Source: Enoplolaimus lenunculus (lineage: Eukaryota). Taken from it: a stretch of 61,916 nucleotides of DNA. Shown one piece after another: positions 11,360 through 35,635 of this stretch. Location: assembly GCA_030248215.1 (NCBI GenBank), contig JASANG010000424.1, positions 496,001 to 557,916 of the forward strand, in the 5' to 3' direction. How positions within the stretch are numbered: position 1 is the stretch's first letter; every line of letters starts with the position of its first letter. The position numbers were made by a program, and so were the translations under genes. Under the pieces are notes generated by a model that was not told the origin of the DNA, searched no databases, and worked only from the letters and a program-made list of their open reading frames with translations.

Positions 11360-14300
11360 TCACCAAGCAGCTCCGCTACTCGTAATACTCGCCACATCAG
11401 AGTCAGACGCAACAACAAATTCAACAACGGAATGGTTGTCACTGAAGTTGCTTGTATCTTCGCTGACAACCGACAAAATATCGCTGCAATAACATACTTC
11501 ACCCACACAACTGTTGTTGTTTTTATCCACATTCACGCGGGATAAGCTGAAACAAACCAGTATATCATTTCGAATCAAGTGACAATTACTGTAAACATAC
11601 ATGCGTATAACAGGCGATAACCGTATTAAAGATGATACTGGCGCCGGAAATCACATTATTTAGTTGAGGCCGAGATTAAAGACGGGCAATACCAGATTAT
11701 ATATAACGTTTTGATTAGATTTGGTGCCATTTTGTTGAATGCAGTACAGCACTCGAATTACCTGCGGCAACCGAATGACGTACAAACATGGAACATCGCT
11801 AACAAAACATTGCTACCAATTAATTGAAACAAATCCAAAGGGGTTCGACCGGAAGTTCCGCTTGGAGTCCCAGGTTCATGATTACGAAACGGAGTCGAAA
11901 CTTAACAAACGCAAAAACCTTCTCATCAACTTACCCGTCAATCAAACTGAAACCGAAACACTCCATCGTTTTCATCGCTGCATCTCTTATAGCTCGTTCA
12001 CTACCATTTCCGTACGCTTCCTTTCGGTTACACACCGGGTAAACCACAGAATTCGGACGACGCGGCGGTTCGTGAACACTTTTTTCAGTTTCGTCACCCC
12101 CAGCTAGAAGCATTTGATATTGTTTCCTACAACAAAATCACATGGTCATTGATAGATACACTTTATTAGTCATAGCTGCGGTGTGAGTACAATCCACAAA
12201 GGAAGTTTAAAGTGACGCTCTCACTAATTCGTTTTACATATCAGCGTTGGGATGCCCCACTAGACCTCAACCTTTCCACCCATGAGTGCCGCTTCCCCGA
12301 TTCAGGTTTAATAAGTGCTCCCGGTTTAACCAAACCGTCCACCACATACATGAGCACCAGTTGAACGATATAACACGAGCGAAGCTAACGAAAAAACAAC
12401 GAAATTTTATCAATCCTAGTACACAATCATTGTACAGTGACAACTTTCGTTACTTGCATTTGGTCATAACTACTCACACATCTGGCACTACGGACCACAG
12501 TTCGTATTCAAAATCGGTGAAATTGAGCGAACGGAGTCATTATGTTTCTCCTTACCTGCTGACACTACTCGTTTACCCCCAAACCATAACTTAATTTATA
12601 CCCCCAAACCATAACTAAATTTACCATTCAGCCGAACCGCAAACATAAACAACATCTGGACGTTCGAATCCATTGAAATTGGAATAAGCTGCAATTGTGT
12701 ACGCTCCCATGTTCGGAAATACCACCCAGTCTCCTGCAGCGAGCACAGGAAGTCTTGTCTGCGGCATTATACAATCGAAACTATCACAAGTTGGACCCCA
12801 AATGCTGCACAGTTTCCAATCGTTTACGCTTTGCGTCTGAAAGTGACAAAATATTAGTACCCGGATAGATACGTTCTGCTGTTTATAGCAAGGTATTCCT
12901 GATTGTCAGCTGTCCAGCACCTAGCAAAACAGGTTCATGATGTAATACTAACCAGAGGCGAAACTAAAGTGTTGACAATACTGAAATTAACAAATCTAAC
13001 ACCTGTCGTGAGTTATAAGAAAGCAATCATCTGTTACTTTAGTGGCCAGTGCAATGTCCACAATAGCGTACACTGATAACCCGGAAGCGACACACGTCGA
13101 AATTTTTCCTATCATATCTTTGACGGTTACCCCAAACAAACAATAAAAAAAGCACATATATACCTTATCCATTGCATATCCTTTTGGAATGACATGGTCG
13201 TACAAAACACAATTGAACGAACCGTAAACTCCATCGTTTAAATAATACATAAATCCGGCTTCGTCCGCGCCAGCATCTAAAGCAGATACACAAAAGACAG
13301 TGCGTACATCTATTATTTAAGACTATCTAACAATAAATAACGTAATGTAAGGCGATTGGACACGTATTTTAGACCAGGGTACAAACGGGATTCCGATTCC
13401 AATTCAAATCCATCTGCAATCATTTGCGAAATTTAACGATAGTTGTGATATATTTCACAACAATCGGTGTTTTTACATGAATTCAGGGTCGTTTGACACC
13501 CTACTTCAGACATGTTCATACGTGCTGTGTAATATTTTAAAAATTGTTGTACGTGTTTCACCGTTGCAAATGTGCACGTTCCTATACCAAGTTAAGGATC
13601 TGGGCGACCAATAAATGCTATTAATTTCGAGCATATGTTACTACCGTATACGCAAGCATAATTAACTTTATCAGGATTCAGTATTACTTCACTTTCAATC
13701 CATTAAATAACGTGTTTCCTGCAAAAATTATTGCGGCCATGAACAAGTTCTTCAGAGTATAATGCATGTATTCACGAGAGGGTCCGCATGAGAGTAAGTT
13801 TAAAAGTAATCGGAAAACCGAAAATGTAGTTGTTTATACCGGAACGGATTATATTTAATTTCTGAGAGCGACACAGCGAAGAAACCAAACTCCAACTACG
13901 AATATTTTTTTACATACAATCACTTCCTGTTTTTAATATACCTTTATCAATCTGCTGTGCGTCTACTTGTTTTACACTAGTTACATTAGTGCACAGCGTA
14001 TACGCAGCGGCTGAAAAAAACCGTCCAGGCTCAGCGATAATTTCCAGCCCAGCTGTTGTATCTGGAAAATATTCGTTCAGAGCTACATTGATAACATGCG
14101 CGATCGCTTCGAACGTGATATCGGCGCTGGCGAATCCCGGATACCCTCCGCCCAAATCAAGCAATGTCATCGCGTGCCCGAGTTCAATTCCTTTATCGAA
14201 CAGACGGCGCGCATGCTCAATGGCAATTGCAAACGCACTTGCATCACGGCAACCGGAACCAACATGAAAGCTAAAACCATCAGCCATGTTCTGAACAGTA

Positions 14301-16595
14301 TGTAGTACAGTTATCGACAGTTAGAAATGTAACAGTTGTAAACAAGCGAACTGTACAAGCTAGAAGTTTGCAACATGAGCACGCACAAAGGCATATGTCC
14401 CTCATAATAAAAGACGAAGTGATTCGAAAAATTTCTCACGTAATATCGTTCTGTATAGTCCATATATATACTTATTTGAAAATCTGCTGGCACCACAAAG
14501 TAACAGCTGATTGATTACGTCTCTGGCAAAACTAAAAGTTTCAAAATTCAAGCGTGTCTCAATGTTTCTAAATGTCCGATCTTTTTCAACTAAACCTTTC
14601 GACAAATGTCAGAAATGTTTCGCGTCGGCTATAATTTGAACACTCTAACAATACGTGGTTAGTGGTTCAAATCAGTGTGACAACAAAGGTTCGGATTGGA
14701 ATTAGGCAAAAATTTGCGGTTCGGATTCGGTTGTAAAAAAGCGGAATCCGAAAGCTGAATCCGACAATGTTCAGCAACATATGTATTAAAAAATTTCAAA
14801 TAACTTTTTACGTATATAAATAAATATTTTTGTTTTACTAACGTTTAGAAGTTATGCGGCTGGCATTGCGTTGATATTCCGGAATAAATTATAGATATAT
14901 GTAACTCATATTTGTAACATGCAAGATTCGGATTCCGATTCGGTAAATTAGCTTTGGATTCGGATTTGGTCATATCGTGGATTCGATGCCACCCTGGTTC
15001 TAATTTTACCTGATTCCTACCACACTGATACCCATTTTAGCTGCCAGCTGCAATAGTTGTTCCGCTTCGTTGACTGGATCTGCGCCAAATTTTAGATTCA
15101 ACTGACACACTGCAGTTGGATCCGACACTGCGATACGCAAAACCATCCTCAAATTGAAAAGCATTCAATACAATATTTGTGCCACAAAAACTTCAGCAAC
15201 TCGAGACAAATTATATGAACACAATTGTTTTTAAGAAATTAATATCTGGCAGACATTACAAGCAAGCAACTAGTTTTTTGTCCGGTTCCGGTTTGAAATG
15301 ACGTCAGACAAATTAATTACGTTTTCCTATCTTCAGTTATGCGTGTCTGCGGTTAAAACCAAGCACTGAAACACACATATTTGGCCATCATCAGTTTCGA
15401 ATACTTTTGCATCGTGGAAAATGTGACTCCCTTAGCGTAAACATTTAAGAAATGTACCCAGCGCCCATCAACAACCAACCGCTTCTACAAACAGTTAAAA
15501 ACACCAAACACAAGCCCTAAATTTAATAAAAAGACTTTTGATACCTGGCATCCGGATAATTCCGTTTCACTTTTTCCAGCTCTGTCGCACTATCAAACGT
15601 CATTAACGAGACGTTATTGGCAGCGGCAAATCGTATATGACTCGCGCCTTTGCATGGATTGGCGTATACAATACGGTCTGCGCTGACTCCAATGCCAAGA
15701 ATTTGTGCAATTTCTGGCTAAAGCAAAAGCAACAAAAATATATAGTATTTACGCAGAGTTTACGTTAAGAAAATTTCCATATAACCTACCTACTTCAAAA
15801 CATTAAGGCAAAAAATGATGTACGTACCTATAATGTCAAGAAATTGTGCACTGTTGAGCTACAAGCCAAAACAATGTCTAAAAACATACATTGCCATCAC
15901 AATTTTCGCAACAAAACTTGCACATACAGTGCTGCTACCTTGCTTGCACAATCGAATCCACATCCCAAATTGGCAAGAACTTGTACCAGTGCAGGATCGT
16001 TGTTACATTTAACAGCGTAAAACGGTTTCACACGAGGCAAGTTAGTTGCCCACGTGTTAAACTGTTTAACCAGTTGACCAACATCCATTACGTAGAACGC
16101 GTCGTCATTGCACTGCAAAAAATAAGTTTAGCTATATAGGAATTCAGATATTTCAAGTTTACATAGTCATAGATTAACCGAAATTATCTCGACCAAAATG
16201 CAAAACTGTGAATTCTCCACTACAACCGCAACAAATTGCTACTGTCTCAAATAGTTTTAAATTTGGATAGAATGCGCCAGCGATGTCCTAGTACGAATTA
16301 TAACAGCTAAGTGACACTAAACACATTCATAGCAAAAAAGACAACTCAGTCACATACATGTATACGCAAATAAAAAGCTTGGCATTGACTTAGCACCCAT
16401 TTAACTTACTTGCTCCGTTTTTCGTCGAGCCATAGTCTCCACGTACCACCTCGTTTCAGAACAAGTACAGTCAATCTCGAGACAACCTTCCGCATGATAG
16501 GCAAACATTTTCTCCAACTGCACGACATCGTCAATGTTTGGCAAAATTTCGACATGTGTCGCGCCCGGATTATCAATGAATGCTATTGTTGACAT
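11360..16595 (-). CDS. odc-1: Ornithine decarboxylase (fold-type III PLP enzyme), ~567 aa; exons 16595-16410, 16112-15939, 15717-15545, 15147-15010, 14270-13942, 13276-13164, 12836-12625, 12126-11935, 11546-11360
   Basis: All junctions are GT-AG and in phase. PLP lysine in [64 protein letters not shown], catalytic Cys in [19 protein letters not shown]. Catalytic residues are intact, so ODC rather than antizyme inhibitor. The last two exons (C-terminal tail) are less certain than the first seven. Confidence 0.95.
14662..14996 (-). mobile_element. hAT-like non-autonomous element with GGATTC/CCGAAT internal repeats
   Basis: Reverse-complement similarity to 27281-27540 (CAGAGTGGCATCG..ACCACGAT..GACCGAATCCGAATC); CAG termini; fragment also near 20070-20150. 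Confidence 0.55.
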
Positions 16596-17477
16596 GGTAC
16601 TGGCCTCCAATTCGGCAGGTATATAAATAAATCTAGCTTTCACAAACACAGGAGTCTATAGTGAGTGGCAAATGAGGGAGGACGTGTACAAGCACTAGCG
16701 ATGCAGTCACACTTAACTATAAGAGCCGTGGTACAATTAATGAACAGTAGCTAACTGGAAAATATATAGATAGGCGCTGTTGGGTAGTAAGTGATGTTGT
16801 AGACCGCGGAACGCAAGCGAAGTATTATAGATACAACACTATTGTCTAGACAGCTGACGCAGGAGTCTAACGGAGGGGAAAGTATAAGCGACGTTTCAAT
16901 TTACAATTGAGAATGTTTAAGTGGGAATTCAGGGGGAATCTCGTGAAGTCTTCGGTCAGGGATAGGGGAAGATACGGTTGCGGATCGGGTTATGGTGGTA
17001 TAAGGTGACGATTGTCTGAAACAAATAAACAACAAATAAACAACTGCATTAACAAGTTTAGCTTTCGTGTAAGTTATTCACATAAATACTAAGCAGCCTG
17101 CAAATGTCGCACAACAATTACGCATTATCGGAAATCTAAGATTAACGCAAAAGTATCCGTACGTACATATTTAACAATGCCGATTTTTATTTCGATATTC
17201 CAATTTAACCAATTCTGATATATCTATTTAATACTACGAGTGTTATTAGAAAAGTTCGCTGCATGAACTACAATATATACGTAATAACACAATTATGATT
17301 TGTTAGTTACCTGCCAGTTCTAGCAGCGATGGGTTAGAGTACTTATACCCAAATTGCGGTCGCAACCCGTAAACAAACAGCTGACCCTGGGTATGGCGAT
17401 TAGACACAAATTCAAATTGGGAAGGAATGATGATAGGCTGATTGAATTTAAAACTATAAATAATAAATCAAGGTAAC
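16596..17477 (-). promoter_or_regulatory. Long spliced, AUG-free 5' leader of the ODC mRNA (exonic 17477-17311 and 17015-16596)
   Basis: Acceptor TTTTAG before 17477, donor GCAG|GTAAC after 17311, acceptor TTTCAG before 17015. No ATG on the minus strand in ~590 exonic nt, whereas the intervening intron 17310-17016 has several. Confidence 0.75.
16990..17428 (-). CDS. Candidate non-AUG (AUU) uORF, 47 aa, ending Pro-Pro-stop; exons 17428-17311 and 17015-16990
   Basis: ATC-ATT-CCT start (A at -3); spliced frame reads IPSQFEFVSNRHTQGQLFVYGLRPQFGYKYSNPSLLELADNRHLIPP*. Start type, size and position resemble the uCC of AZIN1/ODC homologs. Confidence 0.65.
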
Positions 17478-17681
17478 CTAAAAGTTTACAAATTAAACAG
17501 GCGAATAACAAACTGAGAATTTTTCAAATGCGTATATATATGCATGCTGTTGTATTATTATCTTTGGGTTGCTGATGTAAAACTCGAGCGAACAGCATAT
17601 TTGAAAAAAGTCCACACTTTACATACATTGCACAGTAACTATGCAGTACACTGTTGAACAAATATAATATTGAAGTTAAGA

Positions 17682-17769
17682 TGTTGAAGCAGTGCCGTGA
17701 TAGCTAAATTGGTAAGGTTGTTGGCCCGGTTAGTCAAAGGTAACTGGTTTGAATCCAGCAGGGTTCAAC
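17682..17769 (+). mobile_element. tRNA-derived repeat (SINE-like head or tRNA pseudogene)
   Basis: A-box-like TAGCTAAATTGG and B-box-like GGTTTGAATCC; related inverted copy at ~19934-20012 shares the 5' flank GTTGAAGCAGT; cloverleaf stems are poor, so not called a functional tRNA. Confidence 0.55.
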
Positions 17770-19933
17770 CGGAATTCCAATTTCGATTTAAATCATGTTT
17801 CGATTCCGATTCCACAATTAATTGGAATTTTGAAATTTTTATTTTAATCCAACTTCTTGCGATACGTTGCACAAAAATTATTAAACTGCTTCCTATAAGT
17901 TAACTTATCAATAATTGATTATTGTTTAGCTTTCCAGAACCACAAATCATCGCCAATTTGTTCATGCGACGTTTTGAAAATTGTTGCCAGCCTATAGACA
18001 TCATAAAGTAATATTATATTTGTCAATACAAATTATCCGCACGGTCACAAAATTTGTTAAGACACCAGTTTGCTAAGCTAGATTACGACGCAGCATTTGA
18101 TATCCTTCAATAACAAAGTGCAATAACAAAACAACAACGAAAAATACATACAAACACTTTTTCGTCATTAATGTAGCTATGTTATAGACGCGATACAAAT
18201 CTATATCAGTTATCCCATTAAACAATTCAAACGCGAAATAACATAGCGTTCACGCCAGATGACGAGCGCAGTTATTTTTAAACCAAATGTTTACTAGGTC
18301 ACAATTCGTATGCGCAAATAAGGTGTCATATAAACCTTATTTTTGGCATATACGACGCTAAAATTTTGAGCCCCAAAATTTGTACCAAACATTGTACCGT
18401 AGCAGGTTGCAGGAAGTCTGGCCAAAGCAAGACAATATTCTGCGCAAATTTTAAAAAATGAACCATCACGGCAAAACAACAGCACGGCTGTAAATTGGAC
18501 GGTTTGATTCTTGTACCTATAATATTAAAATAAATTCTGAATGATATAAGACTCAACATAGGAGCCCCGGGAAAGGTACAACCAAGCCTCTTTTCAGTTC
18601 ACTTATATAGAGTGTTTTAGACACCACTTAAATTACGTGACCCTCTCAGTGTTGTCAATTTTACTAGGATTGTGTCGTCTAAGGAAAGTATTATAAGCAA
18701 ATATCTTTCGTCAGAATTGCTGCTTTTTATGCTGCCCACAGTGCCAGAACAGGTTTGGGTAGCCATATCGAAATACCGAAATGGGAGCCTCTTGCGGTGA
18801 TAGAAAATAATTTTCAGGTTTTTGTTTAAAAATTGATTAGGGTATAGGACCCTTTTTTGGCTGCCTCCCAAATGATGGTATGTTGGTGGCTGCTCCAGCC
18901 CTAGTTGCCCATTTTTATTTTCAAGTATCGTTCATGTAGAATCGCATGAAAACAGAATAAAATTTTCTCCCGCTGTTCATAGTGGATCGACAATTTCTCT
19001 GTCTTGGAGCCGCTAATTTGGCCAGGTTCCCAGAGGTACTGAAGGCGATAAACCCAACTCTACGTTGCCGCTCTGTTTTATCGTTCATATGTGCGGTCTG
19101 CATAATAAATCAGCACCTGGCTTAAAATTCGACCTGTCATGTGCAGCAACAACCCAGCCGAGCGACAGTACATGCATTTCTGCTTGTATATTTTAAAACT
19201 GGAACCAGAGGTAAAAACCGAAACCAGTGCGTAGCGCATCAACCGTATCTCAAAGATAAACATTTATTCCACAATAAAATATATCAGTAATTATAACAGT
19301 CGCTTATGTAAAAGAACCGTAGGCAAAAGCTCATACATGGTTAAGAAATTAGATATTTCTACTTTTGTTTCATACAGTTAATACACAAAGACCGCTTCAA
19401 ATTTAAAAAAACGCGGGTTAATGCAAAAAATAACAAAACATACTTTGGTTGTTCAAAAATGCCCCGTAATTAAAATGTTTTTTAATCAGCGGTTGAGAAG
19501 GTGTTTTCATGGCGGTACTGAACCGATATTTAAATGTGTATGCTGTTTCCAATACATGCGTCCTGACAGTATTACTTATAACAATTGAAATATATGCGTA
19601 TGGTTTTATACTTGTACACACAATGTAAGGGAACATCCGGATTGATGTCTAAGAAGTGGAATCTAATGCAAGGCTTTCTAGGACAAGAATAAAATGTATG
19701 TTTATTACGTAGCTAGGAAATGTGTTGTGCTAAAATGTGGCCTAAAAATGACAAGCCAAAGACGCCGTGAAGACTCGCCATGGGTCATGCGTTATATATT
19801 CAAAATTCTTTGATATCAAATTTGACTACTGAGGAAACTAGCGAAATTATTTGCGTTTCGTCGCACTCGTGTATGGTTGCGCGGTCTTTGGATAATTATG
19901 CAAGTGTTATGTTAGTGCTAAGTAGTTAAAACA

Positions 19934-20012: not shown

Positions 20013-22449
20013 TACTTGTGCTTGCTGTAAGCATGTGAGACATGCTTGTCCGTTATGTGCACATGCAATACAGTGTATTCGGATTTGGATTCGGCAAAAA
20101 TTTGTGGTTAGGATTCGGATTCGGTTGTGAAAAAGCTTTATCCATAAGGCGAATCTTTTGCGATCAAATACATTTGTCTAGCAATATAAACGGCTATTTT
20201 GATAAAACAAAATTTTTTACGTACCTATATTCTCACTGAATATTCATGGGTCTGGTTGGTACCCGTCCAGCCCCAGTGCTAGGGGTTCTGGCGTCGGGGC
20301 AACTCTAGTTGGAGCTATACATACGATTGGTGTGATAAGCGTGTACATATCATTTTCAAGTTTATTTGTTGCCAGATAACTGTCCCAGCGAAAGAACTAA
20401 TTTTCCTTTTCCGGAGGAAAACCCAGATTATTACAATAAAGAAAAGCAAACATCTTTGTGAGAAAGAGGCTGCCATGAAATATTGATTGTAATAAAAACT
20501 AATTCTTGCGTTATTGCGTTGTAATTTTGCCCTCTCGTGTATGTCATTCAATGTCTTTTCATAGTTGCAAAATGTTAGTCATTTTCGCTCCGAAGCAGAG
20601 TTATATAATTCGTTCTGTGAAATAATTTTCTTGGATTGTTTCTAAATTACTCTTCGTTTACTGATTTAGAACATCGGAGTATTTCGTAACTTAGCATGAT
20701 TTTGCGTTATTTATATTAGTTTTGTTCCTGGTCGTACTGTCGATTTTGCACAGAATTTTGCTAGCTAAATGCAATGAGAAAATAAAGCAGTAAATTTAAG
20801 GCACAAATTATATAAAATTACACCATGTGTGATATAGAATAACTCACAGTGGTAAATATACGTTTACAACTTTAGACTACGTGTACGTAACTTAAGCAGG
20901 TTCACAAACACCAAGTCTACAATGTTTTGATAAATCTTACTTTATTGTAGTACTTATTAATGGGTAAACTTTGACAAAATAACACACAATTCACGATAAA
21001 CTCTACCGGCAAAACACAAATTGTAAACGCGCAACTCTTCATTAATTTTTAAGCTTGAACTTAAAATTCTTTAGATTATTGGATTACAATTTTGTTAGAA
21101 ATATTGATTTTTAGAAAGTTTTTGCATGCGCGGCGTCTATACAACAGCAAAAAACATAACACAATACATGAAAATAATACATAAAACTCGTAACACAAAT
21201 CAACGTAATAACGTTGCCTACTTATGTAGTTACGTAATTATGGAATAAAAGTGTAAATTGGTAAATATTTTGTAGACTTTATTATAGCCCCTCCGGAAAC
21301 CGATCCGGCCCTGTTCTATACATGGGCCACAATTTTTATGCCGAGCATCCCAGTCACAAAATCCTGGCTACGTCCATGCTCAAGACGGCATGTATCACCG
21401 AACTTCATCAACTACCATCTTGCAGGCAAAATTGTTGACTTAAAGACTCAAACGTGACATAACATCATACTAACGACTATGTCACTATTTATTTTAAACT
21501 AAAGACGCATAGTGCAGTTTAATGATCAATTAAAGTCTTAATTATACAAACATATTCTACACACATAACAATTTTATGCAGTGTAGATATGTGAATATAG
21601 ATAACGGTGAAATTTGCGTTAACCTGACCTTAACACATGTCACAAAATTTTGTGTGACACGTGTAAGGGTGAGGTTAACAGAGAAATTTAAGGTAAGGTA
21701 GGGTTAATGAGTGGCAATTTTAAAATTTGCCACTCATTAACCCCAGCGCTGGGCAATTTCGGTGGCAAAGGGAAAAAAGATAAAGTGGATGCTGCATTAC
21801 ATAAAAATACAGAAAATGGGGTTAAAGTGATATTTTTTGGAAGAATTTTGAAAGCAAAGAAACAAAATTATGTATTTCGCGAGTCACAATTAATCAAATG
21901 TAAGAAAAAGAGAGCGAACTGATAGCCCCGGACGCTCTGAAAAAAATGAAAAAGTGAGCGAGAATGATTTGATAATACAAAAAAGGAAAACCCGGAATTC
22001 CAGGAATGTAAGACTAAGACATCACACCACCTACAGGAACGACCCTTATTTGAAGTTTCGTCGAAAGTTAAGTGAAGACCACACTGGGAATGACACCTTG
22101 GCCTCTTTTGCATTCATACTGCAACTACAGCGCGCGGTTGCTGAAACAACTTTTTTTGGCTTCACGTATACATTTCTTCCCGTGCACTTACATATGTACG
22201 TATATATGCCGTGACTGCGGGCCGTAGACAGAAGGATTTACGACGTTAGACCCGTAGAAAAGTTTCAATCTCTGTTTTGAATCTTTTGACAAATTTGTGT
22301 GGCTCAATTAGCCTGTTTAATTGTGTTTAGTGCACATGTATATCTTTCTTGGCTTTACATACATTTCCCTTCGCATGCATTTATGTGTATATGCCGAGAC
22401 TGTGGGCCACAGGCAGAGGAGTTCAGGGGGAAACACACAACAAAAGTTT

Positions 22450-22765
22450 CAATCCCTTTCCCAAGTGAGCCTGCAACAGCACGCATGATTGCGTTACTTA
22501 GGGCATCAGCGACTTTGGTTGCATGATGTGTAATGAACGTGAACATGCTGTCAAGGGTGATGCCTAGTTGCCTTGGTTTTGATGTGGTGGGGATGGGGGA
22601 CCCATTGGCTGTGATTGGCTGTGCCTTGTTAACTTCGTGCGAGAATGTTGTGAATGTGGTTGCCGTTGATTTGCCTGGAGACAGTTGCAGTTGGCGGTGA
22701 TGGAGCCATCTTGCCAGTGTTGAACTTGCCAGGTACCGATTGAGGTGTTCACATAGCGGCGGCAC
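22450..22765 (-). pseudogene. Degraded non-LTR retrotransposon reverse transcriptase fragment
   Basis: LNRYL..LQLSPGKSTATTF..PRQLGITLDS..IMRAVAGS aligns by eye with LNDYI..LAISPTKSTVTIL..PKILGVTLDP..ILKALAGS of the LINE at 25467-26700. Confidence 0.8.
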
Positions 22766-22960
22766 GGTTTTGCTTGCCCTTATTTACGTGCGCAACCGGA
22801 TACAGGTCAGGGTTGCGACACTTGCTACGGAAATACTTACTGGGTTATAGTGTTTTGTACACAAAGTTTTCTGTGACATCATTCACAGTGTTACAACTAA
22901 AACTACAAAAATTGACTAATAATGTGATTACATGATTGTTGCTACTCTAAGACGTTTGCT

Positions 22961-25900
22961 ATGGAAACCACCAGTCCAAATTTTAGTAGCATTCAGAGCG
23001 AGCTCAACCGAATTGTACAAGACACGCAGGGAACTTCAGTAACTGATTCTTCCGTGTTTTCAAGTCCTCGCAGTTGTCCTACTAGAGGTAAGTTTGGGCG
23101 AGTGCAATGGGTTCGTCGGAGTTACCTCTCTCAGCTGTGGCAAAGTGATACCACAATGCATTCTAAGGATATTAGATAACAGTGTTTCCGATTTTCGTAG
23201 CCAGACTTTCATTTCTTGAGGCCTGCCCTCTCCCTTTCGTTCACACCGTTGTTCCCATCCGTTAGGGGACCTGTGGTGAGTTTAATGTTAGGGTAATTTT
23301 TCAACTTGGCAATGTTTAGTTTTCAACGAAAATTTGCCGTGTTTGCTCGATACGCTAGCGAAACAGTCATTTAAAACTTCGTGTTCACAGTTTGGGATTT
23401 CATTGCACGAAGGTCACGACGACAAGCAAACAGATAGACTTGTGAACAATGACGGGTAAGTTTGGGATTCGTATGTAAATATTGTGTAATGATATCGTAT
23501 TGGCATGTTGGTCAATGTTATGTTTAGGAGAGCAATGTTAACGCAAGCTTATGCTTAGCTCTGAACTAAGCATACGCAAAACCATAAAGATTAGTTTATG
23601 GCCTTAATCTACTCTTTTTGCGGCCTCGAGTGAAAACGGAACTCTCATACGTAGCACTAATATGGGAGAGTTTGCGTATGTCTATTGGTGTTGCCAAATA
23701 TAAGTGCTGGGTTTCTGGTACCTTTATTAAGTGCACTTAAGTATTTACTAAGCAATTACTCAAATAATTTACCGTTTCTGGAAGCGTACTTAAGTTAACT
23801 AAATACTTTAGTATACTCACCTAGTTTAATGAATTGCGTACTAAACAGTTTTGGCATAGTTCAGTTGAGATTGTAGATTCATGGAACATCTTTAGCATAA
23901 AGGGAAACTATGGCTTTCTTGCGATGACGCTGACCCTTTGCATTTTTTGCCCAAAAAGTTAAGTATTTACTTAAGTTTGTGACTTAAATACTCGATAAAA
24001 GGGTACAAATTTCGCCACTACGTACATATATTGAAATACAATTAGTTGAAAGTTTATTTTCCGTCAATTAGTTGTTGTTTGGTTTGTTTTGAATTATAAC
24101 TGTCTGTAGTTACGGACGGCACAACTGCCAATTAGTTTAAATTGGTGCTAAGGAGCGACATATATTTGTGCGATTGCATGTTTATTTGTATACTATATAT
24201 TATCTAGAATTTATAATTTCCAGATTATCCCGACAACTGTTGGCGTACACAACTAACGGAATACTTCAGCTGAAGCGTAGGGATATGGCGATTTTGAAAC
24301 CTCGTAAGCTTGTAAGTCTAATCTTGTGTTCAGCAGACTTTTTGATCGAGGCTTTTGGCGTAATTAAAGTATACTGAATCAGATAATTTAGGGCTCATTA
24401 GGTGTTAAGATGATTACAGAGCAAGATTTACCACTGTCGTTTAATGAAACTTCCACAGACTACTAATAATACAAACAATTCTGCCTCCGGATAAAAACTC
24501 CTCAGCGGGCTAAGTTTAACGTATACGTATGCAAATATCAATGTGGACCTCTACAGTGTTTTTCAGATAATTTGATTTTGTAATTTTCTGTTGGCTCTGC
24601 GGGCTTCACATAACTAATTCAGATTGGTTTGGCGTTAGTTTAGGTATGCATGTTATTAGTACGCTGGCTGTATGTTTAATGGCACTGGAAGTAGTTGGAC
24701 CGGTGAAATATTCGACACATATACCATAAGTTAGGCAGAGTCTGGATAAAGTGTTTTTATTTTGAACACCCATTAAATTTTGTTGTATATGTGTAGTATA
24801 CTTTATAATTTAACCATGAGCTTAAAACAGTGATGAACTTCCGGGAGCCTCCTAAAGTTTCACAGTTGCAGCAGAAAGCTTTTTATTAACTGTACTATAT
24901 AAAATTTAAACATGATTGTAATCGAAATCTAGTGATAGGCGCTGCACACATTTGAGAATGCTAGCCTTTCTCACATATCTTGTGTTGAAAATGGCATTGT
25001 GCATACATAGATGTTTCGGAGTTTCAGAACTTACAAGATAAACTACGTCATTTGCAACGCAATGCTGTCAAATTAAAGCGATGTCTTTCGAATGCTCAAT
25101 CAAACGAACAGTGTGGTTCAAATCAGCTTCAAGAGTTTGTAACTGCGATTCAAAATAACGCTCAACTTCAGGTTGGATTCATTATTTGTTGGGTTGAAAT
25201 TTTTTAAGAGTTGTTTCTGTTCTTTATGTACAGCCAGGGAGATAGGCTTTTTAGTTGATATGTGGAGTACGTATAGCAACATTCTACACAGTGCACACTG
25301 TAACAGAAGTTATTTAATCGTATGCTGATCAGGGATGGACGGCTTCGGTAAAAAAGATAGACCGAGACCGAAACCCAACCTACCGAGACCGAGACTTTTG
25401 GTCTCGGTCTCGGTCAATTGTTGTTGTTGTTGTTGTCGTGGCCGTCAGTGTCGTCCAGCAGAGCGGTTATAGATCAAGAAATTGAGCGACCTCGACCGGT
25501 TTTCGCCATAGGTCCTCAGGTATCAGCGTTGTGGGTTTTGCATTGCAGTTGAAGAGATGTATGGTGTTGTGTGGTGTAGACCCGCAGTTCGGACATTTGT
25601 CTGGGATTGTTGCATCAATCCTGTGCCGGTAGCTGTGCAGCAGGAAGGAGTATCCCGATCGTAATTGTGTTATCTTTGAACGCTTGGCTCGGTCCAGTTT
25701 CATTTCTGAGACGTCGATTGGAGGTGGTGGGTACCCTCCCAGTACAACCTGATTGAGGTATTTTGATTTGACCACTGCTACTGTTGTTGTATGGATTTCG
25801 GATATCCGCGCCTTGATTTCGGACTTTGATAACTGATCTGGTGTTGGTGAGCCGATAGCATCTTGAGTGAACGATCTCAATGTGTTTTTCTTTCTTCTTT

Positions 25901-28900
25901 GTCTTGGTCTTTGCTCTGTCACATGATGGCATGGGTGACTTTGAAGGCAGCACTGAGCGTAATATTGGCACGTCAGCATAGCACTATGGTCTGCGACTGG
26001 GAGCACCTTCGCTTCGGAATGCAGATGGTCTTCTGAGGCCATTTTTAGGTTACCCGTTGCTGTCCTTATGGCATCGTTCTGTAAGCGTTGTAGCTTTTGC
26101 ACTTGTGATTTCGAGCAGTTCGGATACCAGACCGGGCAAGCATAATTTATCACCGATCTCCCGTCTGCTTTGTACGTCATTATCATAGTTTCCTTGTTCT
26201 GACCCCATGTTGAGCCAGCTAGAGCTTTCAGGATGTTAATTCGCTGTCTGACTCGTGAATACGTGTTTTCAGTGTGCCTGGGGAATTTTAGCTTTGGGTC
26301 CAGCGTCACGCCCAGGATTTTTGGGTTCTGCTCGAGGGGGATCGGCAGCCCATGAACAATGATCTGTGGGTGGTGTTTGAATTCACTGGGATCAGGCGTC
26401 AGTATGGTCACGGTTGATTTTGTTGGTGAGATCGCCAGTCCTTTGTTTTCGAAGAAGTCGATGAGCTCCGGGATATAATCGTTCAATCGTCGCGATAGCT
26501 CTTCTTTGTTGTGACCGCTCGTGTACACCGTGAAGTCATCCGCGTATGAGACGAGCTTGATGTTTGCCGGTGGAGTTGGCGCATTTGATACATAGAAGTT
26601 GAAGAGCAGTGGCGATATGATGGAGCCTTGTGGCACGCCCATGTGAATGTTTCGGAAAGGTGATACCTCATCTCTGAAACTCGTCTGGGCTTGTCTTCCG
26701 TTGTAACCGTTACCGACAATAAATAAGATTCATACAATTAAACTAATAAATCGTCGCCAAACTTTATTTTTTTACTTTATTTTTCGCTTTGCTACTGTTC
26801 CCATACCCTTCGAACAGACTCAAGACAAATCACACTGTCTCAAAACACCCTCAGTACAACCCTAATTCAAAGCTATAGTGTTGTTTTTGGTCCCGGGCAA
26901 ACTGGATAGACTGGAGAATTTATTAACATAGCGCAGACGGTATAAATGCGAATAATTGTTTACGCAAGGCCTTAAATGTTTTAAAAGCATTGTTGTTTCT
27001 ACTCAAAATCTGTTTTCTGTTGAAGCTTTTGCTTTCATTGAGTCTGTGTGGGATTTATGGTGAATATAAAGTTAATATATATCTATTAGTTACACCATAA
27101 AATTGAAAATTTCAGGCGCCTAATCAGGGTTTGTCGGGGGTACATACCACCAATCTATAAGCCAATAAACGATTTGTTGCTGTTATAAAAGATTTAATAC
27201 CAAAATGAATGACGTGTAACTTAGCTTCTCGCTCGCGAGGTTTTTTATAGTTTTAGACACACAGCAAGTTTCATGTGAACCAGAGTGGCATCGTAACCAC
27301 GATTTGACCGAATCCGAATCCATTGCTAATTTGCCGAATGCGAATCTTGCATGTTGCATATTTCAGTTATATCTAATTTGTTTCAGAATAGCAACGCAAT
27401 CCAGCCGCTTAACTTTATACGGTAATATATTTCCTGCCCGACCTCAGTTTTGAGATTTGTGACCTGAAACAAAATTTTTTACTAATATAATAAGTTATTT
27501 TTTACCGAATCCCAACCTTTGTACCACCGGGATATAAACCAAACTCGAACATCCACAGCTGTGAACTGTGAATCGTTTTGAAACTCTGGCACCGTCTTGG
27601 TCCGGCCTAAGTAAAACTCTTAGCGCTGGGACCGCTCTATTCCATTGAGTAGATGTAAATCTGTATATATTTTGTATATCAACTTTTCAGGTACTAATCA
27701 AACAAGACATATCCGCTGTCAGCGAACGTATCAAACGCATTGATCGCATTTGTTCGACAATTGAAAAATTGTTTTCTGTTTCCAAAACTGACATTGAGAC
27801 AGAAATCCGGCCAAGCGTATCCCTTTGTGACATAACTGGTGCGAATTCATATGGTGAAGCCCGCGATCCAGAAGGTAGTGATACCTTGGGAAAACGTTCT
27901 GATCATTTGAACGCAGCTACCAATGGAACGACTGAAAGGGATCAAATTTTAAGCGAAAAACTTGATAAGAAGCTGGCAAGTACGGAAAAGAAGGCTAAGC
28001 TGACCGTAGAACAGCTAAAGGACGAGTTAGAGCAAAGAAAGCGACGCTTTAGTCAGATAATTCACAGTATTTTTGAGGAGCAGCAATATGAGCACCAAAG
28101 GAAACGGGTAAAAACATCGAAGTGTGTGAAAAAGTCAAGCGAGCTTGCTAAGCAATCGGTTGGAGCTTATGCATTCAATAATGCAACTCCGTTTAAAGCC
28201 GCTAACTCGTCGCAGGAAGATAAGCGTTCGGAGATTAGATCCGGCGGAGAACAGAATATGACCGGCGAGAAGGGTTTGGACGGCGAAATCACACCTGTGG
28301 AAGTGAATGGAAACGTCGAAAACGACCGAGGCAACCAAAATGTCTTGGAAATTTCAAATGAAAATAAGAACCATTCGAGTAACATAAATGATCAAAATTG
28401 TCAATCCTTGACCAGTCAACTTTCAGGGACAGCCATGGAGTCTCAAGAAAACACTTCAGCAAATGTGGAAACGCATCGGCCTAGTGATTTGTTCTTTGAT
28501 CCAAAACAGCACAACGAGCATTTATCATCACCGCCGTCGAAATCATGCTTCTCTGGTCAACGGAGCAGGTCGGATAGCAACGAGATGATCGATCTTGGTG
28601 TAACGCCAAATGATAGCGGTTGCTATACCAGTCGTGATGACATAGCTGCCAACGCAGCATCAAGTTGTTCTAATTATATTGAGTTGACCGGAATTGCGGA
28701 AGAGCCAGCGGTTTCTCAGAGAAATATTGGATCAGTGTCAGAAACTGTCAAAGGATATAATCCTGATCAGCTGTTTGGTTCAACGATTGCTAAGCTGCGG
28801 GCGGCTATCAGAAAACTTTCAATGCCAAGTACCGTAGGGTTAGCTGCGCATGAATATAACATCGGAATGGAAGGCTGTTTAGGGGAACAGAGCGCTGAAG

Positions 28901-30534
28901 GAGCTAATCTGGGTGCTGAAACAGTTAGGTGGGTCCCGGACAATACTAAGAATAAGGATTGTGTGACTTCTGAATGCAGTTCTCTTGAAATCGCTAAGGC
29001 TTCTGAGAATAGTGCCGCTTGTGGAACGTCGGAATTGCGCAAATTTTCAGGTAGCCATAATAGGCGGCCTCTTGAGGTAGAAATGGTGGATCTTTTCGCA
29101 AATTCCGATAGTGATGATAACGATGTAGTTATTATTGATGAATTTGTCAAAACGAATAATGAAATCCACAGCAGGTGTCAGGTAGCGAACCAACCAGCTT
29201 CAAGTGGCAATTTTGAACCATTGGTGAATGCTAGGGAGACTGTAGATTCTAAGGACGGACCAAAGACAACTATACCTCAACCTAATGAGTCACTGGAAAA
29301 ATATGGAAATCCATTTCGAAGTGATATGGGGCAAGTTCAAGGAAAACAAAATTTTAGTAGCAATAATCTCAGTTATGATAGACAAGGACTGTCTGAAAGC
29401 AAGTTTGCAACTTCGGTTCATGGAGCCTACACAGCGTATCCTAGACCCCCTAAGGCGAATATTCAGACCAGTCTGGTGGACTTTGCTTCTGCTGGATGTG
29501 GGTCAAATGCATTTCAGAACTCCGTCTGCGCGTATGGGGAACCCGTTTCCGCGTATAACGATCACCAGTCTCTAAAAATTCCTAAAGATGCAGTTTATGA
29601 CGATAGATCGCGAGCGCCGGTACATTCCAGGCTTGAGCCTTCAGTTTCTAGTCGTTCGTTTGATGATTTCTGCTTGCCTAGAGCTCTCCATGACTCAGCA
29701 AGGCATCACACTCCAGCGTTTGGTGAATTTCATGGTATCTCGAACCGGCCTAGGTATACTGGATACTTCAATCACGTTGCGCCGCCGGCAAGAATGCCAC
29801 AGGATAGGACTAAAGCTCTTACAATACTACTACCGCCTAGATTTGGACCTCAGTGCCACCCTGCGAGAGGGTTTTCACGTTTCCAGCCAAATTTTGATTC
29901 GCATGGATGGTCTCAGCAATTAGAAGCTCGAGCATTTTTTGATCCAAGGCGGATGAGGCCACAATCCGGTGTGCCTTATCACAGAAATCGAGGTTCGTTA
30001 GGCGGTGCTACCCATGGCGACATTCGCAGCCCTTGGCCAGTTAGAATACCAACTGGTTTTCAGTATCGACTTGAGCCTTCTGGTTTCCGACAGCCTGTAT
30101 CTAACCAGATTAAACCTGATCACGAGCAAATGTCTACTAATTTCATGAAGGATCCTCGAGTATATCGGGATACAAAGAACCAGGGTGATATTTCGGCAAG
30201 TGTTGACTATTGGGCTGGAGAATTGCCTGGCGCCTCTCATTTCGATTGCAGCCATGGTCAAAATCAAGCTTGTTTCCCATCTGCGCCAAATGATAAAGGT
30301 GGTTCGAAAACTCAAGTTACAACAGGATCGAAAATATCAGCCCAACTTGCTAAACGACTTGATTTTTCAACGAAAATTTGCACGCAACCCAAGAGCGACG
30401 CCATCAGCAACAATAACAATTACGGGCAAAACAAGCTCAACTGCCATGACAGCAACAGCAAAAACAACAGCAACCCGAACAACAAAAACAATGACAACAA
30501 CAACAACAACAACAATACCATCAACAACAACAAC

Positions 30535-30577
<43 letters not shown>

Positions 30578-30810
30578 TCAACACTAAAGTTAGTGCTGTA
30601 TGCCTTCAAGACGAACCGAATGATGAACAAAATTCTGAATTCGAATCGGATTCAATCAATCAAAATAATCAAGCAGAGTCAAAACAAAATAACAAGCCTT
30701 GTGGTATAGTAGCACAGAACCATAACAGCCACGTCAGCAACAACAACAACAGCAGCAGCAGCAGCAACAGCAACAACAACCACAACAACAACAATAACAA
30801 TAACAGCAGC

Positions 30811-30859
<49 letters not shown>

Positions 30860-32259
30860 CGAACAATAACAAAAGCAACAACAACAAAAACAAGAACAAC
30901 AACAAAAACAACTTCAGCAGCAACAGCAAAAACAACAATGGCTTAGATGACTCTTTTGGCGACTTGCCAAGCCCGCCAGACATAAGTTTGGTCGACAACG
31001 ACTATGACGAGTATCAAAACGAAACCACAATGATCGACAGCAACGACGTAGGCAAACAAATCGTCGACGAGGAGCGACAATGTTTCAGTGATGACAACGA
31101 CGCTGTTACGCGTCATTCGGGTGATTTTGAAGGGTTTTCCGACGACGACTATGATGAGCGTAAAAAAATGACGACGGTCGATGACGTAATCAACAAGAAT
31201 GGTGTCACTGATCCAGATGATGTCATCAGTCGAAGTACCGTCATTGATCTAAATAATGTCATCATTAAAAATGATATAATTGATGACGTAATCGATCGAA
31301 ATGATGTCATGGACAACACTGACGTTATCGATCGAGATGATGTATTCGATGGAAATGACCTGAATGATCGAAATGACGTTAAAGACGCTTATGACAATTT
31401 GGACTATGACAGCGAGCATAGCAACGACGACGACCTGAAGGATCAAAGTAGAAACTGTGCCAAGCAGTATAAAAACCCTGATAATAAGGGAACGATTCAA
31501 ACTGACGTTGGTCAATGTCAAATGCGTAAATTTCATGACACTAATATGCCTGAGGATGCTTCTAAGGGTAGGATTTCGGCTGCGAGCTCAAACGAAACGC
31601 AACGATCGTTAATGATTGATTGTGATTTGAGTGGATTTGGCTTGGTTGAGAGCGGGCTTAATTCGGCTATCGGTCAGAAAACCAGCCCTTCCCTTAAAGG
31701 AAATGGGAAACTTTCTACGTTTGAGGAGGTCTACGAAAATGACGATGGGGAAAGAAGACAGTTTAGTGGTGCTATGTCTGAGGATAAAGGATGTGAGGAG
31801 AGTTGTATTCTGGAAACCGGAAACGATAGACATGATTCTGTGATCGACGAATTTTTGAAATGTTTCACCAATAGTTCGGATAAATTGTCGCCGGCCGAGC
31901 TAATTTTGCAGTTCAAAGAGGGTCACAGGGAAGAATTTAAATTCGAAGTCGACAGTTTTGGTGGAGGAAGCCAGAATGATGATCGTAATACATCTAAGAT
32001 AGAACTTAAGTTCGCTAGGACTGGTGATTCAGGACTGATTAAAATATACTCAGGGACTGGGAATGATTTTAATGTCGCTCTGGATTCGGCGCTCGCTGGA
32101 TTGTTGTCAGACTATGAAGCACTTGCGCGCGAAGGTTTTAGCACTTTGGCGGAACAGTATGTTAACTCTTGCCAAGGGGCTAGCACAATTTGTAGTAAGT
32201 CTGTCGCTGACGATAAATGGTTAGCATTTGCCAACTTTGTTAAAAACAAAATTAATTAA
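22961..32259 (+). CDS. Uncharacterised ~1640-aa largely disordered protein; exons 22961-23087, 23320-23455, 24224-24311, 27691-32259
   Basis: 4.57-kb open terminal exon preceded by TTTTCAG; three upstream exons join in phase via GTAAGT donors. Coiled-coil-like N-terminal part, R/F/G/P-rich middle, poly-Asn tracts, Asp-rich region. No domain recognised. Confidence 0.8.
25418..26705 (-). mobile_element. 5'-truncated non-LTR retrotransposon (LINE; I-group-like, clade uncertain) with (CAA)n tail
   Basis: Uninterrupted frame with GVPQGSIISPLLFNFY, YADD, KILGVTLD, C-terminal CX2CX8HX3C (CPNCGSTPHNTIHLFNC); short 3' UTR then (CAA)7; lies antisense in intron 3 of the 22961-32259 gene. Confidence 0.95.
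30408..30940 (+). repeat. Coding (AAC)n/(AAT)n/(AGC)n tracts encoding poly-Asn/Ser
   Basis: Directly visible trinucleotide runs in the open frame. Confidence 0.9.
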
Positions 32260-32930: not shown

Positions 32931-34521
32931 TCATATACTAAAACCTGCATTATCATAATTAACAATTTATAGCATATAGCAGAGTGGCAACAAAAGTTCA
33001 GATTCGGTTTTAATTTCGTCGATATTTAAAGGGTCGACATTATATTCGTTGATGAAAAAGCCGACTGCAGCAAGAAAGTTCGCGAAAACTGTCTTGCGTG
33101 TGCTTGTGAAATTGAGTTGAGCAAACGGGATAATTTTTCAGACAGTTTTAACGTTTAAATTTTGAAGCTTAACGCATGAGTTTCAATGAAATTGGGTTGC
33201 AATAGTTCAAAATCTACATGTTTCTATTGGTTGCGATTTATTGCTCAGTCGGCTTGTCAAATGGCTACGGTTCAATTTTAAACGATACTTTAGTGTATGA
33301 GGGTATTTTTTGAACTCTCGATTTGGATTCTAAAAATCGTCACAAAGGATCCGTATTGGCTTCAAGTCGTTGGTTCGGTACCGCCTTGCGTGTCACTTAT
33401 CGACCGGATATTTATTTTACCGGAGCCGGATAGTGAATTTTGTACCGGAACCGGAGCCGGATGTTAATAACCGGATACAGGATTTAAATTTGTACACTGT
33501 TGGAAGTATTTGAGTTGTGCACAAAAATATGTATTTATGGATTTAAGATTAATTTTCAGTTTGGATTTTTTATTCCATGCCAGTGTCCATTCATGAATCG
33601 CTCGGAAATGCACTCGCTTCAAAATATCTAGTATTTTGACGTGCAATAAACAGTTTTATGATATTTTGAACCACAACCACACATATCCGGTAGGTTTACA
33701 CCGGATACCGAAACCGGATACGGATGTCAGATTTTGTCGGATATTAAACCAGAACCGGACCGGATATCTGGTCGATACCTGCCTCCGACTACGCACTTTT
33801 AATAATCCTGGTTTGATTTTTGGGCTTCAGCGTTATTTGCGTTTGTTTTATTATTTTGTTTTGAATGGATGTTTGTATTTTAGTATTATAGCTTGGTATT
33901 TTGTGCGTTAGAAATAGTACAAATGCATCAACTACTGTTATTAGTGATATTTAAAGGTATGCTGTAACTTATGCAGGGTCCACAATAAGCAGTGACACAG
34001 TGGTGGAAAATGGAGTTCAGTTTGAAAATATAATTTTAAACAATATTCAATTCCGGGTAATTGAATCGTATTTGTTTGCGTAGCCAGGAATAAATTGCAG
34101 TAACATAATAGTTTGCAAACTAAGAAAAACATAAATCAGTTTGCAAACTAAGAAAAACATAAATCAGTTTGCAAACTGACTTTAAATTACATTACAAGTA
34201 TTAAATCATATGAACACGATAGTGTTCATATATATGGTTCGCGCTTCTCAAGTGCGTATTTTCAGTTTAGTTTGCATGTTGGTACTCAGGTAACATCAGA
34301 CCTAGTTCGTTTAAATTTTGTACACTGATATCCTTTTCCGTCGGGAATATCTGTGCCAAAGGATTTGCTAAACGAACGTGGTCTTCAGTAGTTACGGTCA
34401 AAAAACTCCTACCAGAAAGTGCACGAAATTTTCCATTTTGGTTCAGCACTTTTTACCCGTTAGCTAAGTAATTTTATACGATTATAACTTTATAGGTACA
34501 CTTTATAGGGCTTTACGGTCG

Positions 34522-35485
34522 GGTTCACCCCAACGGTTAGTTTAACCCCAACGGTTGGTTTCACCCCAACGGTTGGTTTCCCCCCAACGGTTGGTTTCCC
34601 CCAACGGTTGGTTTCCCCCAGCGGTTGGTTTTCCCGCAACGGTTGGTTTCCCCCCAACGGTTGGTTTTCCCCAACGGTTGGTTTCCCCCCAACGGTTGGT
34701 TTCCCCCCAACGGTTGGTTTCCCCCCAACGGTTGGTTTCACCCCAACGGTTGGTTTCACCCCAACGGTTGGTTTCACCCCAACGGTTGGTTTCACCCCAA
34801 CGGTTGGTTTCACCCCAACGGTTGGTTTCACCCCAACGGTTGGTTTCATCCCAACGGTTGGTTTCACCCCAACGGTTGGTTTCCCCCAACGGTTGGTTTC
34901 ACCCCAACGGTTGGTTTCACCCCAACGGTTGGTTTCCCCCCAACGGTTGGTTTCGCTCCAGCGGTTGGTTTCACCCCAACGGTTGGTTTCCCCCAACGGT
35001 TGGTTTCACCCCAACGGTTGGTTTCACCCCAACGGTTGGTTTCCCCCCAACGGTTGGTTTCACCCCAACGGTTGGTTTCACCCCAACGGTTGGTTACACC
35101 CCAACGGTTGGTTACACCCCAACGGTTGGTTTCACCCCAACGGTTGGTTTCACCCCAACGGTTGGTTTCACCCCAACGGTTGGTTTCACCCCAACGGTTG
35201 GTTTCACCCCAACGGTTGGTTTCACCCCAACGGTTGGTTTCATCCCAACGGTTGGTTTCACCCCAACGGTTGGTTTCTCCAACGGTTGGTTTCACCCCAA
35301 CGGTTGGTTTCACCCCAACGGTTGGTTTCCCCCAACGGTTGGTTTCACCCCAACGGTTGGTTTCCCCCAACGGTTGGTTTCACCCCAACGGTTGGTTTCA
35401 CCCCAACGGTTGGTTTCCCCCCAACGGTTGGTTTCACCCCAACGGTTGGTTTCACCCCAACGGTTGGTTACACCCCAATGCTTGG
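34522..35485. repeat. Minisatellite, 18-bp unit TTCACCCCAACGGTTGGT, ~53 copies
   Basis: Directly visible tandem array with occasional 17-bp variants; explains all repetitive ORFs at 34490-35570. Confidence 0.97.
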
Positions 35486-35635
35486 TTTTATACAAATACG
35501 TTGGTTAGGCGCTTGTTTTCAGGATAAAAGTTTCTGTCATGCAAACGATTTTTTGAAACTCCGTATTTAGTTTAATCAGTCTTCTCACTTTTCATAGTTC
35601 GGATTGATGGATTAATCAGCAGCTTGGTAAAGCGG

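What the first reader, a model, noticed from the sequence alone, without database searches (positions are those of the whole stretch)
16990..17428. Hidden AUU-initiated, intron-spanning uORF ending Pro-Pro-stop in the ODC leader: candidate polyamine/eIF5A sensor
Seen: on the minus strand, splicing 17311 to 17015 creates a 47-codon frame with no AUG that begins ATC-ATT-CCT (A at -3) and ends ATA-CCA-CCA-TAA (IPSQFEFVSNRHTQGQLFVYGLRPQFGYKYSNPSLLELADNRHLIPP*), ~395 nt upstream of the ODC AUG. It is invisible to the ORF track. Known: AZIN1 and many ODC-homolog mRNAs carry an ~50-codon AUU-initiated upstream conserved coding region (uCC) starting Ile-Pro, whose C-terminal PPW motif stalls ribosomes when high polyamines inhibit eIF5A; the stall queues scanning ribosomes and represses the main ORF. 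eIF5A also promotes termination. Inference: this is a functionally equivalent element whose sensor is PP-stop (a termination stall) rather than PPW, with no similarity I can see to the vertebrate uCC body, on a catalytically intact ODC of a probable nematode. I cannot check whether this variant has been reported.
Basis: partly seen in the sequence, partly recalled or inferred. Interest (0 to 1): 0.9.

Follow-up and report, generated by a model that had tools for sequence, protein, structure and literature searches.

The report
Proline-stop uORF before nematode ODC
The leader of this probable roundworm's ornithine decarboxylase gene holds a 47-codon reading frame, split by a predicted intron, that starts at AUU and ends in two prolines and a stop; it is likely a diverged version of a known polyamine-sensing brake on translation, differing from its animal counterparts in lacking the usual Pro-Pro-Trp ending.

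Summary
Removing a 295-nt GT-AG intron (17310-17016) gives an AUU-started 47-codon frame ending Pro-Pro-UAA, 394 nt before the AUG of an ODC that keeps its catalytic motifs and groups with nematode ODCs. The splice sites are the best of 130 GT and 72 AG sites upstream, and the 563-nt spliced leader has no AUG. Eleven complete animal uCCs that I recovered from ODC mRNAs share the start signature and length (46-51 codons) but all end in a PPW motif. The body shows no significant similarity to them. The pattern arises in 0.2% of simulated leaders under a strict definition and 3-9% under loose ones. PP-stop is not a new sensor type: the published nematode AdoMetDC uORF ends PP-stop, four probably fungal ODC leaders here do too, and this scan has noted PP-stop and uCC frames before ODC in other genomes. 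Best reading: a diverged animal uCC that stalls at termination (about 0.6). No RNA data, no close relative with the frame and no primary paper were available, so expression, conservation and polyamine response are untested. New variant of a known kind; moderate interest.

The parts
17311..17453 (-). Predicted leader exon carrying the AUU and codons 1-39 plus one base; its 5' edge is uncertain (acceptor-like AG at 17454 or 17478, cis- or trans-splice site unknown)
   Evidence: Donor rank 1 of 130; C content 24% against 12% in the intron; no ATG between 17545 and 17264
17423..17434 (-). Start region: two in-frame AUC codons, then AUU (17428-17426) and a Pro codon; A at -3, C at +4
   Evidence: best match in the spliced leader to a matrix of 11 animal uCC starts (8.6 bits; family leave-one-out 2.1-20.1; 37 positions in the whole window score as high)
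17384..17389 (-). Gln14-Gly15 (CAG GGT), at the place where animal uCCs have Gln-Gly, which looks like an old intron junction; no intron here
   Evidence: QG at residues 14-17 in 8 of 11 complete uCCs; 4 of 776 control frames; intron-like sequence before QG in genome-derived gene calls. Noticed after the fact, suggestive only
17016..17310 (-). Predicted 295-nt GT-AG leader intron, phase 1 in codon 40; holds 5 ATGs
16990..17015 (-). 3' part of the uORF: rest of codon 40, codons 41-47, Pro-Pro at 16998-16993, TAA at 16992-16990
16596..16989 (-). 394-nt ATG-free spacer between the uORF stop and the ODC start
11360..16595 (-). Ornithine decarboxylase gene, 9 predicted coding exons (16595-16410, 16112-15939, 15717-15545, 15147-15010, 14270-13942, 13276-13164, 12836-12625, 12126-11935, 11546-11360), 567 aa; the last two exons rest on splice signals and an open frame only
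   Evidence: Pfam PF02784 and PF00278, human ODC structure hit E 1e-29, tblastn, one stop and 8 of 8 catalytic motifs present

Best explanation
This is likely a diverged member of the animal ODC upstream conserved coding region (uCC) family that would act as a polyamine-sensing brake, with the stall predicted to happen at termination on Pro-Pro-stop instead of during elongation at Pro-Pro-Trp. Shown in the DNA: the frame, its start signature, its length, the AUG-free leader and the strong splice sites. Inferred by analogy with AZIN1 and HOL1: at low polyamines most scanning ribosomes pass the weak AUU and make ODC; at high polyamines eIF5A is inhibited, the few ribosomes in the uORF release the Pro-Pro peptide slowly, a queue reaches back about 140 nt to the AUU, more ribosomes start there, and ODC synthesis falls.
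For: Start A(-3)-AUU in 11 of 11 complete animal uCCs, followed by a Pro codon in 8 of 11, as here. Length 47 against 46-51; first Pro of the pair at 46 against 41-45. Right gene and place: leader of an ODC. Strict pattern 35 of 20000 by chance, 0 hits on either unspliced strand of the 62-kb window, 1 of 1216 pseudo-splices. Leader 563 nt without ATG while its intron has 5. Two weak anchors in the body: Gln14-Gly15 (4 of 776 controls) and a Tyr-x3-Pro motif shared with 24 of 41 family bodies (4 of 776 controls, 39 of 3000 shuffles); both were picked after looking. A true PPW-type member (L017) also scores -0.2 bits on the body profile, so loss of body similarity does not exclude descent. PP-stop ends the conserved nematode AdoMetDC uORF (PMC2811004 supplement). 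Mechanism for PPW and for the HOL1 PS-stop as summarised in PMC11550727, PMC10855120, PMC9082881 (passages); eIF5A acts in termination (PMC5499558 passages).
Against: The body is not significantly similar to the family: global score z 0.66, p 0.23, where members score z 4-12; profile 0.6 bits; larger body profile -0.1 bits, reached by 1207 of 3000 shuffles. The family's best-kept residues (PPW, terminal PS) are absent. No homologue of the exon-1 peptide was found. The one nematode-clade mRNA with a leader (L001) has no PPW, no PP-stop frame and no alignable DNA. Incidental PP-stop frames occur in 2 animal leaders that also hold a PPW frame (L015, L017), and loose definitions are met by 3-9% of simulated leaders. 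In yeast the eIF5A-dependent pause at stops was independent of a preceding proline (PMC5499558).
Confidence: 0.6

Rival explanations
1. A functional PP-stop polyamine sensor that arose anew in this lineage after loss of the ancestral uCC, so it works like a uCC but is not descended from the animal one.
For: No significant body similarity; intron at a different place from the family's; the review argues for four independent origins of uCCs; a fungal leader (L055) also combines AUU-Ile-Pro with PP-stop, so the signature can arise by convergence.
Against: Length of 47 codons matches the animal family, the fungal AUU frame in L055 has 25; Gln-Gly and Tyr-x3-Pro anchors sit at about the family's spacing.
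Confidence: 0.1
2. A decaying or merely constitutive uORF: an old uCC that lost its Trp to a stop and no longer senses polyamines, at most damping ODC output or exposing the mRNA to nonsense-mediated decay.
For: PPW and terminal PS are gone; no conservation could be shown; the review reports loss of the uCC from mammalian and bird ODC.
Against: A 47-codon frame across an intron with start context and PP intact while the body has diverged beyond recognition is hard to keep without selection. A test for leftover family sequence after the stop was negative (p 0.11-0.12), so a recent Trp-to-stop break is not indicated.
Confidence: 0.13
3. The AUU exon is outron or a minor 5' exon; most mRNAs are SL trans-spliced at the strong acceptor at 17016 and carry no uORF start.
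For: Probable nematode; trans-splicing at TTTCAG-type acceptors is common in nematodes (my own knowledge); this acceptor is the strongest upstream.
Against: A top-ranked donor at 17310 in phase with the PP-stop tail, exon-like composition and the uCC start signature all lie upstream of that acceptor.
Confidence: 0.09
4. The leader and intron are real but the frame is a chance product.
For: Loose definitions are met in 167 to 460 of 5000 simulated leaders; incidental PP-stop frames in L015 and L017.
Against: The definition taken from the independent family (start signature, PP at codon 38-50) is met in 35 of 20000.
Confidence: 0.08

Closest known systems
Animal uCC of ODC homologues, including vertebrate AZIN1 (Ivanov, Loughran and Atkins 2008; Ivanov et al. 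2018; seen only through review PMC2811004 and passages of PMC9082881, PMC11550727, PMC10855120)
   Same: Leader of an ODC homologue; AUU start with A at -3, usually followed by Pro; 46-51 codons in 11 complete examples recovered here; adjacent prolines near the end; intron inside the frame
   Different: Ends PP-stop, not PPW-x-PS-stop; body not significantly similar; intron 6 codons before PP instead of about 21-31
Nematode AdoMetDC (smd-1) uORF (PMC2811004 Supplementary Figure 1B, read)
   Same: Polyamine-pathway leader in nematodes; ends Pro-Pro-stop in 9 of 9 species listed
   Different: AUG-started, 17 codons, on another gene; no sequence relation tested beyond the ending
Fungal ODC uCCs (review PMC2811004; PP-stop frames seen here in L034, L052, L055, L059)
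   Same: PP-stop frames in ODC leaders; L055 starts A(-3)-AUU-Pro
   Different: Thought to be of independent origin; other lengths and no shared body
Yeast HOL1 uORF, PS-stop (Vindu et al. 2021; seen through PMC11550727 and PMC10855120 passages)
   Same: Proline next to the stop as a polyamine- and eIF5A-sensitive termination stall
   Different: Six codons, Met-started, Ser as last residue, on a transporter mRNA

Membership tests
Animal ODC/AZIN1 uCC | Lies in the 5' leader of an ODC homologue | tested here: met
   leader inferred from splice signals and AUG depletion, not from RNA
Animal ODC/AZIN1 uCC | Non-AUG start, AUU in good context | tested here: met
   A(-3) AUU CC, as in 8 of 11 recovered members; best site in the leader
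Animal ODC/AZIN1 uCC | About 50 codons | tested here: met
   47 against 46-51
Animal ODC/AZIN1 uCC | Two adjacent prolines near the C-terminus | tested here: met
   Pro46-Pro47; criterion from PMC2811004
Animal ODC/AZIN1 uCC | PPW motif and terminal Pro-Ser-stop | tested here: not met
   Ends PP-stop; PPW in 13 of 13 mRNA-derived members used and 41 of 41 profile hits, the latter selected by a PPW-bearing profile
Animal ODC/AZIN1 uCC | Conserved residues before the prolines | tested here: not met
   z 0.66, 0.6 bits, -0.1 bits; nucleotide matrix negative at all 11 offsets; only two post hoc anchors
Animal ODC/AZIN1 uCC | Conserved as coding sequence among relatives | tested here: inconclusive
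   No homologue found; no close relative with a leader was available; L001 is distant
Animal ODC/AZIN1 uCC | Polyamine-enhanced, sequence-dependent repression of the main ORF | not testable with these tools
   Needs reporters or ribosome profiling
Proline-stop uORFs of polyamine-pathway mRNAs (nematode AdoMetDC, HOL1) | Penultimate proline before the stop in a polyamine-pathway leader | tested here: met
Proline-stop uORFs of polyamine-pathway mRNAs (nematode AdoMetDC, HOL1) | Termination stall that depends on polyamines | not testable with these tools
   Needs toeprinting or ribosome profiling

The most novel reading that the evidence does not exclude
In a nematode lineage the ancestral animal ODC uCC swapped its PPW elongation stall for a PP-stop termination stall, the same ending that nematode AdoMetDC uORFs use, while keeping AUU start and queue length: a natural experiment showing that AUU queuing can be driven by termination alone. 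A choice between cis-splicing and SL trans-splicing at 17016 could further switch the sensor in or out of the mRNA.
Probability: 0.4. Interest if true: 0.55.

Novelty: new variant of a known kind. Interest (0 to 1): 0.35.

Why it matters
If true, it extends the polyamine-sensing uCC to a form that joins the two known modules, the AUU queuing start of AZIN1 and the proline-stop termination stall of HOL1 and AdoMetDC uORFs, in an animal ODC. It would be a ready reporter substrate for asking whether stalled termination alone can raise non-AUG initiation about 140 nt upstream. It does not open a new kind of regulation.

Tried and rejected
No whole genome is held for this window. No RNA holder was listed for 12500-17600; this is no evidence either way. 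Primary papers PMC2481320, PMC5916843, PMC8500938, PMC7686025, PMC6290161 and PMC5414311 are not held; their alignments and supplements may already show a nematode PP-stop uCC. Nine literature searches listed no paper whose title or abstract start names such an element; PMC13578949 treats upstream regions of C. elegans odc-1 and F53F10.2 under the label 'uCC, uORF, or ORF1' but its text and searchable supplement give no sequence. The exon-1 peptide found 3 hits among 1.84 billion representatives, all unrelated repeat proteins, and none in the 5.8-billion set; the Atlas gave no answer. Idea that the codons after the stop are a relic of the family's ending: rejected, p 0.11-0.12. Idea of a conserved hairpin in the frame: rejected, z 0.13 here and -1.9 to +1.2 in 11 members. 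Idea that L001 shares the C-terminal residues: rejected, two stops precede them and DNA does not align. Rfam on 16400-19500: one chance match below its threshold. Alternative donor at 17385 would give a 22-codon frame with the same end but scores 0.7 against 11.9 bits. The careful tree did not finish; the quick tree was used.

Full report
Observation. On the minus strand an AUU at 17428 opens 39 codons and one base up to 17311; after a 295-nt GT-AG intron the frame resumes at 17015 and ends CCA CCA TAA at 16990, 47 sense codons in all and 394 nt before an ATG at 16595. Without splicing it stops after 41 codons and has no proline pair.

Is the intron real? No RNA run was listed, so the splice is a prediction. 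It is a strong one. With matrices from the gene's 8 coding introns, the donor ranks first of 130 GT sites and the acceptor first of 72 AG sites in the 2 kb upstream of the start, and both outscore the leave-one-out values of the coding sites. The flanking exons have 24-29% C, the intron 12%. The 563-nt spliced leader has no ATG, its intron has 5; a leader without ATG arose in 7 of 20000 simulations. The 5' edge of the AUU exon is not known; acceptor-like sites lie at 17454 and 17478.

The gene. Nine predicted coding exons give a 567-residue protein with one stop and all 8 catalytic motifs I looked for (motifs and numbering recalled). Pfam and solved structures call it an ornithine decarboxylase. 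In a quick tree of 76 proteins it falls in a 22-row group (support 99) whose six named members are all nematodes; its nearest row is the unnamed P0003, 58% identical. The careful search did not finish.

Relatives. A scan of metagenome contigs kept 80 ODC-like loci. I examined 55 of them, mostly short transcript-like contigs, and left out 25 longer ones. Thirteen carry a classical uCC with PPW near its end; 11 are complete. All 11 start at AUU with A at -3, 8 continue with a Pro codon, they are 46-51 codons long, and PPW begins at codon 41-45. A profile search added 41 proteins, all with PPW, some named from fish, lancelet and snail; that search selects for PPW and says nothing on how common PP-stop is. 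The window's frame matches the family in start signature, length and roughly in the distance from AUU to the prolines (46).

Where it differs. It has neither the Trp nor the terminal Pro-Ser. Its body is not significantly like the family's in three tests: global score z 0.66 where members give 4-12, full profile 0.6 bits, body profile from 41 distinct sequences -0.1 bits, reached by 1207 of 3000 shuffles. One true member, L017, also fails the last test (-0.2 bits; the other five tried gave 4-38). Two small anchors remain, both noticed after looking: Gln14-Gly15, found at 14-17 in 8 of 11 members and in 4 of 776 control frames, and a Tyr-x3-Pro motif found in 24 of 41 bodies, 4 of 776 controls and 39 of 3000 shuffles. 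In genome-derived gene calls the residues before Gln-Gly look like translated intron ends (25 of 41 have QG 24-32 residues before PPW), so I infer that Gln-Gly marks an old intron junction, which this gene would have lost. Tests for leftover family sequence after the stop and for a conserved hairpin were negative.

Chance. A pattern defined from the family (purine at -3, AUU-CC, open frame, PP starting at codon 38-50, stop within 8 codons) occurs in 35 of 20000 simulated leaders and nowhere on either unspliced strand of the window; with relaxed bases after AUU it occurs in 81 of 20000 and in 1 of 1216 pseudo-splices, the real one. Looser patterns occur in 167 and 460 of 5000, and two animal leaders hold incidental PP-stop frames (L015, L017). 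Chance is unlikely but not excluded.

Conservation could not be shown. The exon-1 peptide has no homologue in either protein library. Only two fetched loci fall in the nematode group: L051 has no leader, and L001 has a 353-nt ATG-free leader with no PPW and no PP-stop frame, only a three-proline frame open from the contig's 5' end. L001 is too distant to be a test.

What is known. I read the main text (parts 1-3 of 4) and part 1 of 2 of the supplement of the review PMC2811004. It describes mostly AUU-started uCCs in ODC homologues of animals and three fungal groups, nearly all with two adjacent prolines near the end, and a Pro-Ser end in animals of six phyla. Its supplement shows an AUG-started nematode AdoMetDC uORF ending PP-stop in 9 of 9 species. 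Passages of PMC9082881, PMC11550727 and PMC10855120 give the PPW queuing mechanism of AZIN1 and the PS-stop termination stall of HOL1. Passages of PMC5499558 show eIF5A acting at termination, but independently of a preceding proline. Passages of PMC13578949 show that upstream regions of C. elegans odc-1 and its AZIN homologue are already used as polyamine read-outs. I also saw passages of PMC3105428, PMC8892498, PMC7530721, PMC13222480 and PMC8162569, which changed nothing. The primary papers were not held, so I cannot say whether a nematode PP-stop uCC is in their alignments. Four ODC leaders fetched here, three placed with fungi by the tree and one by its best hit, carry PP-stop frames, one starting AUU-Pro, and earlier notes of this scan report the same in other fungi and uCCs in other animals.

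Mechanism. Shown: frame, start context, length, AUG-free leader, splice signals, intact enzyme motifs. Inferred: weak AUU initiation, slow release of a Pro-Pro peptide when polyamines inhibit eIF5A, a queue back to the AUU, and lower ODC output as negative feedback. I give this 0.6 with descent from the animal uCC and 0.1 more for the same function by independent origin.

Verdict. It works like a uCC but fails two defining features of the animal family (PPW-x-PS end, conserved body), so I do not file it as a plain member: new variant of a known kind. Interest 0.35: a tidy, testable variant, with a precedent for each of its modules and no direct evidence yet of expression or conservation.

Noticed in passing
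L003:40-200 and L004:130-300: Two related animal ODC mRNAs carry an upstream frame with no proline pair that ends W-D-x-A-Y-T-G-I-S-stop, followed by the same bases that follow the classical uCC stop; it may be a PP-less uCC variant.
   Followed up: partly
L002, L006, L008, L019, L020, L028, L070, first 9-12 bases after the uCC stop: The bases after the stop are conserved and read Tyr-Leu in frame in these 7 of 12 aligned members; an RNA element or readthrough is possible. The window lacks a significant match.
   Followed up: partly
P0147-P0186: Many database 'hypothetical proteins' from fish, lancelet and snail are mis-called uCCs; they point to old intron junctions just before the conserved Gly and, in another group, about 21 codons before PPW.
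   Followed up: partly
L001:1-353: A nematode-group ODC mRNA with an ATG-free 353-nt leader and a frame ending three prolines, four residues, stop, open from the contig's 5' end; possibly the cut end of another uCC variant.
   Followed up: partly
window 17385 (minus strand): A weak in-phase donor would give a 22-codon uORF with the same PP-stop end; the tripeptide Asn-Arg-His occurs twice in the frame, probably by chance.
   Followed up: partly
window 11360-12126 (minus strand): The predicted ODC has a long Ser/acidic C-terminal tail of about 130 residues beyond the catalytic domains; PMC13222480 says C. elegans ODC-1 lacks a tail and AZIN-1 has one.
   Followed up: no
window 25467-26729 and 22355-22783 (minus strand): Open frames that look by eye like non-LTR retrotransposon reverse transcriptase pieces.
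   Followed up: no
window 34490-35570: A 1-kb array of short tandem repeats, open in several frames on both strands.
   Followed up: no
window 27649-32259 (plus strand): A single 1536-codon open frame rich in Asn, Asp and Ser, not identified.
   Followed up: no
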